Positions 1 through 745 of a stretch of DNA of 64,000 bases are shown one piece after another (within the stretch, counting starts at the first letter, position 1; every line of letters begins with the position of its first letter). The DNA lies in assembly GCF_053078305.1 (NCBI RefSeq), contig NZ_CP166879.1; one strand, 5' to 3'. Both the position numbers and the translations under genes were made by a program. The notes below the pieces were generated by a model. The model was not told where the DNA came from. It did not search any database and was given only the letters and a program-made list of their open reading frames with translations.

Positions 1-258
1 GAAAGCCCCTCCGGAGAGGGGCTGGAGTAGCGCTATGTACCGTTCATTACATGATGCCGGGTGCCTCCCGGTGAGTTCAGCCCGGTGCCACCGAACCCGC
101 GTCATTCTCGCTAACGATCATCAGAGACCATTCCGTACACCAGCCGCCCCTCCGCACAGGGGGATTCATCATGCAGAAATTTTTTAACAAATTCTCAGTC
201 GGGAAGACAACCTTCAACTGACTGAATTGTGAGCAACATAGCATTTAACGGGGAACCT
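1..258. repeat. Structured repeat unit, copy 1 (three conserved hairpins; may be truncated by window edge)
   Basis: Hairpins AGCCCCTC-CGGA-GAGGGGCT (4-23), CCGGG-TGCCT-CCCGG (57-71), CCCCT-CCGCACA-GGGGG (147-163) plus conserved tail; same order and spacing recur at 489-745. Confidence 0.6.
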
Positions 259-488
259 GTTTTCTGCAGTAAAAAGGCCCACCGGAGCGGACGGGCCTGG
301 AAGGATAGCGGTCATGTGATGCCGGTTTCCCGGTAACTCAGCACCGGTATCTGAGTCAACGTTTTCTCTACTGGGTCATTTCCGATACGCCCTGCCTGCT
401 GACAGGCTTTCATCACATCTGAAAATATAGCACCCTGACTGATACTGTAGTACCCAAGGTTCCAGAAACTGTGATGTATCCGGCACAG

Positions 489-745
489 AAAAGCCCCTCC
501 GGAGAGGGGCTGACGCTGCGTATCTGTATCATCATGCGCATGGTGCCGGGTGCCTCCCGGTGAGTTCAGTATCAGCACCTGAACCCGCACAGAAAGGATA
601 AGGGATGTAACCAAACACCTGTCGCTGATATGCCCCTCCGCTCAGGGGGATTCACCATGCCAGTTTCTTTTAACAAACTCCCCGCAAATCAGACAACTGT
701 CAACCGTCTGAATTGTGAGACATTTAAAATTTTCGGGGCAACAGG
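489..745. repeat. Structured repeat unit, copy 2 (diverged)
   Basis: Hairpins at 492-511, 546-560, 633-649 matching copy 1; minus-strand reading of the first hairpin is followed by TTTTCTGTG (terminator-like). Confidence 0.6.

What the first reader, a model, noticed from the sequence alone, without database searches (positions are those of the whole stretch)
1..745. Two copies of a 260-bp element carrying three conserved hairpins, downstream of the orphan methyltransferase
Hairpin sequences and spacing are conserved between the copies (A 4-23/492-511, B 57-71/546-560, C 147-163/633-649) while inter-hairpin sequence has diverged, which suggests selection on structure. Read on the minus strand, hairpin A is followed by a T-run and looks like an intrinsic terminator. 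Candidate roles are a Q-dependent terminator array, a structured small RNA, or a recombination hotspot. The track ORFs here are not conserved between copies.
Basis: seen in the sequence. Interest (0 to 1): 0.5.

Follow-up and report, generated by a model that had tools for sequence, protein, structure and literature searches.

The report
Tandem prophage STnc100 small-RNA genes
The repeated hairpin element is a tandem set of three genes for a known prophage small RNA family (STnc100, related to EcOnc27 and PasD), so the finding is real but not new.

Summary
In detail: hairpins A, B and C sit at the stated coordinates and repeat with a period of 486-489 bp.

**What it is.** Read on the minus strand, both copies are strong matches to Rfam RF02076, STnc100 (154 and 135 bits; threshold 47).

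**Anatomy of each unit.** A promoter block is followed by a 107-127-nt folded 5' domain, a 14-26-nt variable linker and an intrinsic terminator (hairpin A). The domain is closed by an 8-bp helix and holds hairpin C, stem P5 and hairpin B. It also has a pseudoknot that I did not find described in the papers read.

**Support.** Covariation across more than 15 enterobacterial genera is strong: 89% of cells paired against 38-48% in slid controls.

**Context.** The array sits between antiterminator Q and the lysis genes, where Stx phages carry stx followed by one STnc100 (EcOnc27/sRNA103). The same position holds in other genera, often as 3-6 copies.

**Published evidence.** Family members are transcribed, detected by Northern blot and bound by Hfq. 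No direct target of an STnc100 has been validated.

**Verdict.** "Terminator array" and "recombination hotspot" are side-effects at most. This is an already known family, of low interest.

The parts
483..660 (-). STnc100 unit 2 RNA (about 178 nt). P1 5' strand is GCAUGGUG at 653-660 and P1 3' strand is at 538-545. Hairpin C 633-649, pseudoknot 5' strand 624-630, stem P5 with the pseudoknot partner in its loop 562-586, hairpin B 546-560. Variable linker 512-537; terminator (hairpin A plus UUUUCUGUG) 484-511.
   Evidence: Rfam RF02076 at 135 bits over 689..483. Independent model R1 at 88.8 bits over 660..537. The MFE fold shows the same architecture. 32 of 32 consensus pairs are formed. The 3' half is about 97% identical to the stx2-linked STnc100 of an Stx2a phage.
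661..742 (-). Promoter block of unit 2. Proposed -10 TTAAAA lies within 661-674 and -35 TTGTCT within 680-696 (17-nt spacer). A TTGACA lies within 697-705, and the conserved block CTCACAATTCAG is at 708-719.
   Evidence: Conserved with unit 1 (repeat D1) and across strains. The geometry matches the PasD promoter (TTGACT-17-TTAAAA), and the RNA-seq-estimated PasD 5' end is at GCAUGG (PMC8550237 table S6). The generic promoter scan did not call it.
269..419 (-). Divergent unit M RNA (about 151 nt). P1 411-418 / 314-321, hairpin C' 394-407, pseudoknot 5' strand 382-388, P5 335-357, hairpin B' 322-333, linker 299-313, terminator 269-298.
   Evidence: Rfam STnc100 at 28.5 bits, below the threshold of 47. 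R1 gives 27.5 bits, E 8e-7. The MFE fold reproduces the family architecture with different hairpin sequences. 23 of 32 consensus pairs and 5 of 6 pseudoknot pairs are formed. The unit is present in 672 of 5426 E. coli genomes in two sequence types. The second type keeps hairpin C' with a different sequence.
424..432 (-). Extended -10 promoter element TGcTATATT of unit M.
   Evidence: Read directly from the sequence. It is invariant in the four arrays aligned. Function is inferred.
1..174 (-). STnc100 unit 1 RNA, cut at its 3' end by the window edge. P1 167-174 / 49-56, hairpin C 147-163, pseudoknot 5' strand 138-143, P5 73-98, hairpin B 57-71, linker 24-48, terminator stem 4-23.
   Evidence: Rfam at 154 bits over 203..1, flagged as cut at the 3' end. 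R1 gives 83.2 bits over 174..48. The full 3' end is seen in L001.
175..256 (-). Promoter block of unit 1. Proposed -10 TTAAAA within 175-188, -35 TTGTCT within 194-210, conserved block CTCACAATTCAG at 222-233.
   Evidence: Repeat D1; alignment across strains.
1778..1797 (-). Further intrinsic terminator on the late-transcription strand, after the three tRNA genes. It is context, not part of the repeat.
   Evidence: Terminator scan; tRNAs at 1811-2062.

Best explanation
Window 1-745 holds three tandem small-RNA genes of the STnc100 family on the minus strand. This is Rfam RF02076, the same kind as EcOnc27/sRNA103 downstream of stx2, and a sister of PasD1/PasD2. The genes lie in the "moron" region of a lambdoid prophage, between antiterminator Q and the lysis genes.

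**Shown here.** Each unit carries a conserved upstream block followed by an RNA of about 150-180 nt with three parts:
1. A 107-127-nt 5' domain closed by an 8-bp helix (P1). It holds hairpin C, stem P5 and hairpin B. A pseudoknot joins the strand just 3' of hairpin C to the P5 loop.
2. A 14-26-nt linker with no conserved structure, which differs between units.

**Inferred from relatives.** The upstream block is a sigma-70 promoter and the units are transcribed on their own in the lysogen. The RNAs associate with Hfq. They act in trans by base pairing through the variable linker, so each unit has its own target set.

**Inferred from position.** The three terminators shield the lysis genes from this constitutive transcription. 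Q-modified polymerase reads through them after induction.

The role of the nearly invariant 5' domain is not known.
For: **Identity**
- Rfam STnc100 at 154 and 135 bits, threshold 47.
- A covariance model built only from sequences of other genera plus PasD2 finds all three units at 88.8, 83.2 and 27.5 bits.

**Structure**
- On a MAFFT alignment of 31 sequences from more than 15 genera, RNAalifold recovers P1, hairpin C, hairpin B and the pseudoknot helix de novo.
- Counting the full structure gives 89.2% of cells paired against 38-48% when partners are slid. Cells changed on both sides number 131 against 21-46, and 0 of 500 shuffles reach the observed values.
- 65 G-U cells fit the minus strand only.
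- Pseudoknot: each sequence's own P5 loop pairs with its own upstream strand at a mean of -9.2 kcal/mol. Loops from other members give -6.0. None of 2000 permutations did as well.
- Between strains there are compensatory changes in P1 and P5.

**Autonomous genes**
- 32 of 85 distinct upstream regions have a sigma-70-like promoter in the right place. In random windows of the same loci the rate is 2.5%.
- PasD has the same promoter geometry as units 1 and 2, and its RNA-seq 5' end lies at GCAUGG.

**Literature on relatives**
- 11 STnc100 copies are transcribed in EDL933, and one was confirmed by Northern blot (PMC5331693).
- EcOnc27/sRNA103 is Hfq-bound and Northern-positive (PMC4104026, PMC7873438).
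- PasD1/PasD2 depend on Hfq for stability, and their seed lies in the pre-terminator linker (PMC8550237).
- RpoD binds STnc100 promoters in Salmonella (PMC10794520).
- The 3' half of unit 2, linker included, is about 97% identical to the stx2-linked copy.

**Context**: Q at 3721-4416, with tRNAs and methyltransferases between it and the array. Holin and lysozyme lie downstream in homologous genomes.
Against: - There are no expression data for this strain.
- The proposed -10 hexamers of units 1 and 2 (TTAAAA) are weak, and the generic promoter scan did not call them.
- The U-tails of units 1 and 2 are short (UUUC, UUUUC) and no U-rich stretch precedes the hairpin. This is a poorer Hfq-binding module than in PasD, which has eight U. 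The criterion comes from my own knowledge of Hfq-binding modules.
- No direct target of any STnc100 has been validated. Links to fimZ, espA and stx2B rest on overexpression or in silico prediction (PMC7873438, PMC12370729).
- A seed-pairing model does not explain why hairpins B and C are almost invariant in sequence across genera. It also does not explain why some prophages carry the 5' domain head-to-tail, with no linker or terminator in between.
- Unit M is below Rfam's threshold and could be a decaying copy.
Confidence: 0.8

Rival explanations
1. The 5' domain is the functional unit: a pseudoknotted RNA module that binds a conserved protein or the ribosome, or acts in cis on the late transcript. 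The sRNA "seed" would be a secondary add-on.
For: - Hairpin B (CACCGGGAGGCACCCGGCA) and hairpin C (GAAUCCCCCUnnGCGGAGGGGC) are nearly invariant in sequence across more than 15 genera. The stems around them covary freely.
- Pantoea and Enterobacter prophages carry 5-6 domains. Some lie only 11-20 nt apart with no terminator between them.
- The position, immediately downstream of Q on the late strand, is kept with three different Q families.
- Several STnc100 copies showed high ribosome-footprint coverage in EDL933 (PMC5331693).
Against: - No partner is known.
- PasD RIL-seq chimeras map mostly to the 3' linker and terminator, which fits a classical Hfq sRNA.
- Most units have their own promoter and terminator.
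- A stable 5' domain could simply protect the RNA from decay.
Confidence: 0.15
2. The element is mainly a Q-dependent terminator array that insulates the lysis genes until Q is made.
For: Four minus-strand intrinsic terminators lie between the tRNAs and the window start: 1797..1778, 511..492, 298..275 and 23..4. Lysis genes lie downstream in homologous genomes, and Q lies upstream.
Against: - A terminator needs about 30 nt. Here 110-nt domains with covarying helices and their own promoters are conserved.
- Relatives give abundant discrete RNAs in uninduced cells (PMC8550237, PMC5331693).
- Stx phages carry a single copy.
Confidence: 0.1
3. The repeats are primarily recombination substrates: mosaic joints between prophages with no RNA function.
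For: - Linker cassettes are exchanged between positions. The linker of window unit 2 is the linker of unit 1 in strains FXCREC180 and NU14, and also that of the stx2-linked copy.
- Relative to the Stx2a-phage copy, unit 2 is a chimera. Its 3' half is about 97% identical and its 5' variable region is unrelated.
Against: Neutral recombination scars would not show compensatory base changes, conserved promoters or G-U strand asymmetry. Nor would they be detected as RNAs by experiment (PMC5331693, PMC4104026).
Confidence: 0.05
4. The region encodes small proteins.
For: ORFs of 30-115 aa overlap it. Some STnc100 copies carry ribosome footprints (PMC5331693).
Against: None of the four longest ORFs scanned has a Pfam match. 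Between units and between genera, start codons and frames are not kept. For example, the AUG after hairpin B in unit 2 is followed by a stop after one codon in unit 1 (sequence).
Confidence: 0.02

Closest known systems
STnc100 (Rfam RF02076), including EcOnc27 / sRNA103 downstream of stx2B in Stx2 phages
   Same: - Sequence and structure match at 135-154 bits.
- Same place in the prophage: after the moron and before the lysis genes, on the late strand.
- The 3' half of unit 2, linker included, is about 97% identical to the stx2-linked copy.
   Different: - Here there are three units in tandem, where Stx phages have one.
- The middle unit is too divergent for Rfam's threshold.
- The first 30 or so positions of the Rfam model appear to be promoter rather than RNA, judged from the PasD 5' end.
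- I did not find the pseudoknot described in the papers read (for the preprint).
PasD1 / PasD2 of EPEC E2348/69 (EcOnc13 in EHEC)
   Same: Same overall fold (P1, hairpin C, P5 and pseudoknot), same promoter geometry, and same position upstream of the sialate esterase and holin genes. A 2026 preprint already proposes a common origin with STnc100.
   Different: - PasD lacks hairpin B.
- It has a long U-rich linker with the seed UGUGAG and an 8-U tail. None of the window linkers contains UGUGAG.
- It scores only 42 bits with model R1.
AsxR / AgvB anti-sRNAs, the convergent partners in the prophage sRNA dyads of Tree et al. 2014
   Same: They share the locus. The published dyad is one sense sRNA (EcOnc27 type) and one convergent short sRNA between the moron and the lysis genes. 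In a near-identical genome, a convergent plus-strand terminator and a unit of about 55 nt lie just beyond window position 1.
   Different: The window units are the sense partner, not the anti-sRNA. Rfam AsxR and AgvB give no hit here or in L001.
Tandem sRNA paralogues such as OmrA/OmrB, PrrF1/PrrF2 and the Qrr sRNAs
   Same: Adjacent paralogous sRNA genes with conserved and variable parts.
   Different: No sequence relation. Those are core-genome sRNAs with a conserved seed. Here the presumed seed is the variable part, and the large 5' domain is the conserved part. This comparison rests on my own knowledge.

Membership tests
STnc100 (Rfam RF02076) | Covariance-model score at or above the curated gathering score (47 bits) | tested here: met
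   Unit 1 scores 154.2 bits and unit 2 scores 134.9 bits. Unit M scores 28.5 bits and does NOT meet the threshold. It is supported only by the independent model R1 (27.5 bits, E 8e-7) and by its fold.
STnc100 (Rfam RF02076) | Consensus secondary structure maintained by compensatory change | tested here: met
   89.2% of cells paired against 38-48% in slid controls. 23 of 32 pairs show changes on both sides, and 0 of 500 shuffles reach the observed values. De novo RNAalifold agrees.
STnc100 (Rfam RF02076) | Located in a lambdoid prophage or phage | tested here: met
   Q, RusA, DNA methylase and tRNAs lie upstream. Esterase, holin and lysozyme lie downstream in homologous genomes. 354 phage records match, mostly Stx phages.
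STnc100 (Rfam RF02076) | Expressed as a discrete small RNA | not testable with these tools
   Shown only for relatives: RNA-seq and one Northern blot in EDL933 (PMC5331693), and EcOnc27 Northern plus Hfq-CRAC (PMC4104026, PMC7873438).
Hfq-dependent base-pairing sRNA | 3' module: terminator hairpin with a long U tail, preceded by a U-rich stretch | tested here: inconclusive
   The hairpins are strong, but the tails are short: UUUC(UUAUGG), UUUUC and UUUUUAC. PasD has eight U. Hfq binding itself cannot be tested here.
PasD | Seed UGUGAG in the pre-terminator linker, and BLAST-level similarity to PasD1/PasD2 | tested here: not met
   The linkers are GCAUGAUGAUACAGAUACGCAGCGUC, AAUGAACGGUACAUAGCGCUACUCC and GACCGCUAUCCUUCC. 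The fold is shared but hairpin B is absent from PasD.
AsxR / AgvB anti-sRNA (RF02703 / RF02702) | Match to the Rfam models | tested here: not met
   No hit at E up to 1 in window 1-5000 or in L001 3000-8200.
Intrinsic (Rho-independent) terminator | G+C-rich stem-loop followed directly by a T-run on the transcribed strand | tested here: met
   511..492 and 298..275 were called by the scan. For 23..4 the T-run lies outside the window and is seen in L001. Termination efficiency was not tested.

The most novel reading that the evidence does not exclude
The conserved 5' domain of about 110 nt would be a functional RNA module in its own right. The case rests on these features:
- a closing helix;
- two hairpins that are nearly invariant in sequence;
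- a pseudoknot whose pairing covaries.

Lambdoid prophages across the Enterobacterales place this domain directly after Q, in up to six copies. Some copies lie head-to-tail within what must be one transcript.

On this reading the domain binds a conserved cellular or phage partner, or acts in cis on the late transcript. The Hfq "seed" linker would be an exchangeable cassette added to it.
Probability: 0.15. Interest if true: 0.6.

Novelty: already known. Interest (0 to 1): 0.2.

Why it matters
The main value is correct annotation. About 700 bp that genome pipelines leave blank or fill with spurious "hypothetical proteins" are three sRNA genes. They belong to a family tied to Stx phages and, in one study, to clinical outcome of O157:H7 infection (PMC12711010).

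Four secondary points could help people who work on these RNAs:
- **Transcript start.** It probably lies about 30 nt inside the Rfam model.
- **Fold.** The 5' domain contains a well-supported pseudoknot.
- **Undetected subtype.** A divergent subtype (unit M) occurs in 672 of 5426 complete E. coli genomes and escapes Rfam-based annotation.
- **Linker exchange.** The presumed seed linkers are swapped between copies as cassettes.

The function of the conserved domain is still open.

Tried and rejected
- **Protein coding.** The four longest ORFs in 1-977 have no Pfam match, and frames are not kept between units or genera. Rejected.
- **Plus-strand RNA.** Model R1 gives at most 8.5 bits on the plus strand, Rfam finds nothing there, and G-U pairs fit only the minus strand. 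Rejected.
- **AsxR/AgvB identity.** No Rfam hit. Rejected.
- **Unit M as chance or a decayed remnant.** Not favoured, but expression is untested.
  - It scores E 8e-7 with an independent model and folds like the family.
  - It is 99% conserved across arrays whose outer units differ.
  - Its second sequence type keeps hairpin C' with a different sequence.
- **Loop-loop contact between hairpins B and C.** The variable positions of the C loop do not covary with the invariant B loop (reading of alignments A1 and A2). No support.
- **CsrA or ribosome decoy.** Both invariant hairpins carry GGAGG or GGA. This was noted, but the motifs lie largely within stems and nothing here tests the idea. Left as part of the novel case.
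- **Functional link to the orphan methyltransferase.** The array also occurs behind TerB+DUF3927 and directly behind the tRNAs. Rejected.
- **Target prediction for the linkers.** Not attempted. Without the genome and without validation it would add nothing.
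Full report
**1. Observation**

The six hairpins are at the coordinates given. The repeat finder reports three repeat families:
- an exact 23-mer at 2-24 / 490-512;
- a 31-mer at 97% identity at 50-80 / 539-569;
- a 111-nt repeat at 72% identity at 146-256 / 632-742.

The period is 486-489 bp. Over the RNA-coding part the two copies are 68% identical.

On the minus strand, hairpin A of the second copy is called as an intrinsic terminator (511..492). For the first copy the T-run falls just outside the window. 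It is seen in a 99% identical genome (L001).

The same scan finds a further minus-strand terminator at 298..275.

**2. Identity**

A scan against Rfam gives STnc100 (RF02076) on the minus strand. The scores are 154.2 bits (203..1, cut by the window edge) and 134.9 bits (689..483), against a gathering score of 47. A sub-threshold match of 28.5 bits lies at 442..269.

To avoid circularity I built a covariance model (R1). Its 27 input sequences came from other genera plus PasD2, and none came from the window. With filters off it finds the three units at 88.8, 83.2 and 27.5 bits (E 3e-24, 1e-22, 8e-7). Nothing else in the first 5 kb scores above 8.5 bits, on either strand.

**3. Structure**

A pattern scan for the hairpin-C motif over one genome per species returned members from about 15 genera. 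They include Enterobacter, Superficieibacter, Kosakonia, Citrobacter, Klebsiella, Raoultella, Pantoea, Erwinia, Serratia, Phytobacter, Mangrovibacter, Trabulsiella, Franconibacter and Buttiauxella. It also returned scattered chance hits outside the Enterobacterales.

*Covariation.* The test used a plain MAFFT alignment of 31 sequences.
- RNAalifold recovers de novo an 8-bp closing helix (P1), hairpin C and hairpin B. It also recovers a helix between the strand just 3' of hairpin C and a downstream segment.
- That downstream segment is the loop of stem P5, so the helix crosses P5 and forms a pseudoknot.
- Counting P1, C, P5, B and the pseudoknot together gives 89.2% of cells paired, against 38-48% with partners slid.
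- There are 131 cells with a change on both sides, against 21-46 in the slid controls. No shuffle out of 500 reaches the observed values.
- P1, P5 and the pseudoknot carry the covariation. Hairpins B and C are almost invariant in sequence.

*Pseudoknot.* The pseudoknot pairs are:

| RNA | 5' strand | 3' strand |
|---|---|---|
| Unit 2 | AUCAGC | GCUGAU |
| Unit 1 | CUGGUG | CACCGG |
| PasD | AUGAUC | GAUCAU |

Across 86 distinct members, each RNA's own P5 loop pairs with its own upstream strand at a mean of -9.2 kcal/mol. Loops from other members give -6.0. None of 2000 permutations did as well.

Six or seven of the nine loop nucleotides are involved. This resembles fully paired kissing loops (my own knowledge). 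Alternatively, the pseudoknot and the inner pairs of P5 may alternate. I could not decide between the two.

*Strand.* 65 G-U cells in the counted helices fix the minus strand as the RNA strand.

*Single-sequence folds.* Units 2 and M each fold into the family architecture on their own, with z-scores of -2.2 and -2.4. The MFE fold of unit 1 is an alternative. Its hairpin C and its terminator share GGAGGGGC / CCCCU and can pair with each other.

**4. Where the RNA starts, and promoters**

PasD1 and PasD2 of EPEC have RNA-seq-estimated 5' ends at GCAUGGUG, the first base of P1 (PMC8550237 table S6; sequences). Upstream of that end they carry TTGACT, a 17-nt spacer and TTAAAA.

Units 1 and 2 have TTGTCT, a 17-nt spacer and TTAAAA in the same register. 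Unit M has an extended -10, TGcTATATT. So the first 30 or so positions of the Rfam model are probably promoter, not RNA.

Across the family, 32 of 85 distinct upstream regions have a sigma-70-like promoter (at least 8 of 12 matches) correctly placed before P1. The rate in random windows of the same loci is 2.5%. ChIP-exo in Salmonella places RpoD at STnc100 promoters (PMC10794520).

The promoters of units 1 and 2 are weak by consensus and were not called by the generic scan. Their activity is inferred.

**5. Anatomy of the window element (minus strand)**

| Unit | Promoter | 5' domain | Linker | Terminator |
|---|---|---|---|---|
| 2 | block 742..661 | 660..538 | 537..512 | 511..484 |
| M | ext. 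-10 at 432..424 | 419..314 | 313..299 | 298..269 |
| 1 | block 256..175 | 174..49 | 48..24 | 23..1, running off the window |

**6. Unit M**

It has lost the invariant sequences of hairpins B and C but keeps hairpins at both places. It also keeps P1, P5 and 5 of 6 pseudoknot pairs.

It occurs in 672 of 5426 complete E. coli genomes, unannotated, in two sequence types: 341 records at 99% identity or more and 327 at 90-95%. The second type keeps hairpin C' with a different sequence: CUGCC/GGCGG instead of GCCUG/CAGGC.

In arrays from other strains, M and its flanks are about 99% identical to the window, while the outer units differ. I read M as a divergent, probably functional paralogue. Expression is untested.

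**7. Context**

On the minus strand the gene order is as follows:
1. RusA (4766..4407)
2. Q (4416..3721; Pfam Phage_antiter_Q, E 5e-84)
3. an ORF with no family
4. DNA methylase (3161..2103)
5. tRNA-Met/Ile2, tRNA-Arg, tRNA-Arg (2062..1811)
6. a terminator (1797..1778)
7. a weak N6-methyltransferase match (1725..790)
8. the array

In genomes with the same array, the next genes are a SASA (nanS-p-type) esterase or DUF1737, then DUF1378, DUF826, holin and lysozyme. This is the "moron" site where Stx phages carry stx. In an Stx2a phage, one STnc100 with the same promoter block starts right after stx2B.

How widespread the array and its parts are:
- The whole array (at least 80% of 1-745) is in 352 of 5426 complete E. 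coli genomes.
- At least one match is in 2708 genomes.
- 354 phage records match, mostly Stx-converting phages with a single copy.

The gene upstream of the array varies. It is the methyltransferase here, TerB+DUF3927 in FXCREC180, and nothing in NU14. The link to the "orphan methyltransferase" is therefore incidental.

**8. Other genera**

R1 finds 98 copies in 55 loci. Arrays are common:

| Locus | Organism | Copies |
|---|---|---|
| L050 | Enterobacter cancerogenus M004 | 6 |
| L026 | Pantoea formicae | 5 |
| L064 | Pantoea rodasii | 5 |
| L006, L024 | Superficieibacter | 5 each |
| L023, L038 | Superficieibacter, Enterobacter | 4 each |
| L007 | Superficieibacter | 3 |

Rfam's own model detects most of these too.

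In 7 of 8 loci checked, a Q-like antiterminator lies just upstream and/or lysis genes lie just downstream. Six of these loci have a Q-like gene, from three different PHROG families.

In L050, L026 and L064 some domains follow one another with only 11-20 nt between them and no terminator. They must lie in one transcript.

**9. What is known about the family**

- STnc100 is among the most frequently annotated sRNAs in bacterial genomes, with no assigned function (PMC9029176).
- EDL933 has 11 copies, all with RNA-seq reads. One was confirmed by Northern blot, and several have notable ribosome-footprint coverage (PMC5331693).
- The copy after stx2B overlaps EcOnc27/sRNA103, which is Hfq-bound by CRAC and Northern-positive. 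Overexpression raises fimZ and espA transcripts, by an unclear mechanism (PMC4104026, PMC7873438, PMC12711010).
- STnc100 was detected in outer-membrane vesicles of STEC (PMC12370729).
- A 2026 preprint proposes that PasD and STnc100 share an ancestor. It reports that PasA and PasD copies are distal rather than tandem, and it mentions no pseudoknot.
- PasD is stabilised by Hfq. Its proposed seed (UGUGAG) lies in the linker before the terminator.

**10. Mechanism**

*Shown here:*
- family membership of units 1 and 2;
- the conserved fold, including the pseudoknot;
- the terminators;
- promoter-like elements;
- the variable linker;
- the conserved position after Q.

*Inferred from relatives:* transcription in the lysogen, Hfq association, and trans-acting base pairing through the linker.

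*Inferred from position:* the terminators keep this transcription, and that of the tRNAs and morons, out of the lysis genes. Q-modified polymerase overrides them after induction.

*Weak points:*
- the short U-tails of units 1 and 2;
- the weak -10 hexamers;
- the lack of any validated STnc100 target;
- no explanation of the near-invariant 5' domain by the seed model.

**11. Linker shuffling**

The linker of window unit 2 is GCAUGAUGAUACAGAUACGCAGCGUC. It is essentially the linker of the stx2-linked copy, and also of unit 1 in FXCREC180 and NU14. In those two strains unit 2 carries a different linker.

Relative to the Stx2a-phage copy, window unit 2 is about 97% identical from P5 to the terminator. 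It is unrelated in the internal variable region.

The invariant blocks therefore seem to serve as crossover points that reassort linkers.

**12. Verdict**

The finding is a real feature, correctly described, and belongs to an already described and curated RNA family.

The new details are modest: the third divergent unit, the pseudoknot, the probable transcript start, cassette exchange, and arrays in other genera. The most novel reading left open is that the 5' domain is a functional module of its own. I give that reading about 15%.

Noticed in passing
L001 5905-5985 (+ strand), i.e. just beyond window position 1: A convergent unit of about 55 nt with its own terminator: CACGUUUUGUUGUUUAUUCCUUGCUGCCCGCAUCUCACCAUGCGGGCUUUUUUU. 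It faces unit 1 and fits the "convergent sRNA dyad" of Tree et al. 2014. It resembles the EPEC RIL-seq candidate E2348C_1409.E2348C_1408.IGR. Rfam AsxR and AgvB give no hit.
   Followed up: partly
window 512-537 and 24-48; L079, L080 and L082: Pre-terminator linkers behave as exchangeable cassettes. The linker of window unit 2 equals that of the stx2-linked STnc100 and that of unit 1 in strains FXCREC180 and NU14.
   Followed up: partly
L050 7439-7803; L026 13148-13512; L064 12407-12771: In Pantoea and Enterobacter prophages, three 5' domains lie head-to-tail, separated by 11-20 nt, with no terminator in between. This implies multi-domain transcripts.
   Followed up: partly
window 222-233 and 708-719: A conserved block CTCACAATTCAG lies upstream of the -35 of units 1 and 2. 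It contains CUCACA, the motif found in PasD targets (PMC8550237 table S7). This is probably coincidence, or it may be a regulator site.
   Followed up: no
window 147-163 with 4-23 (unit 1); likewise 633-649 with 492-511 (unit 2): Hairpin C and the terminator share CCCCU...GGAGGGGC and can pair with each other. The MFE fold of unit 1 uses this alternative. Other genera have unrelated terminators, so it may be accidental.
   Followed up: no
window 6841-7015 (-), 14718-14794 (+), 14819-14906 (+), 46804-46877 (-): Other Rfam matches above threshold in the window: sok antitoxin, isrK, C4 antisense RNA and the PyrD leader. The last shows that the window runs into core chromosome.
   Followed up: no
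window 3312-3737 (-): A 141-aa ORF directly after Q has no Pfam match. Weak, sub-threshold Rfam hits (isrK, Phe leader, STnc370) lie at 3591-3730, where pR' and its short transcript would be expected.
   Followed up: no
L038 2742-2838 and 3438-3535: In an Enterobacter prophage, isrI matches and a tRNA are interleaved with the STnc100 copies.
   Followed up: no
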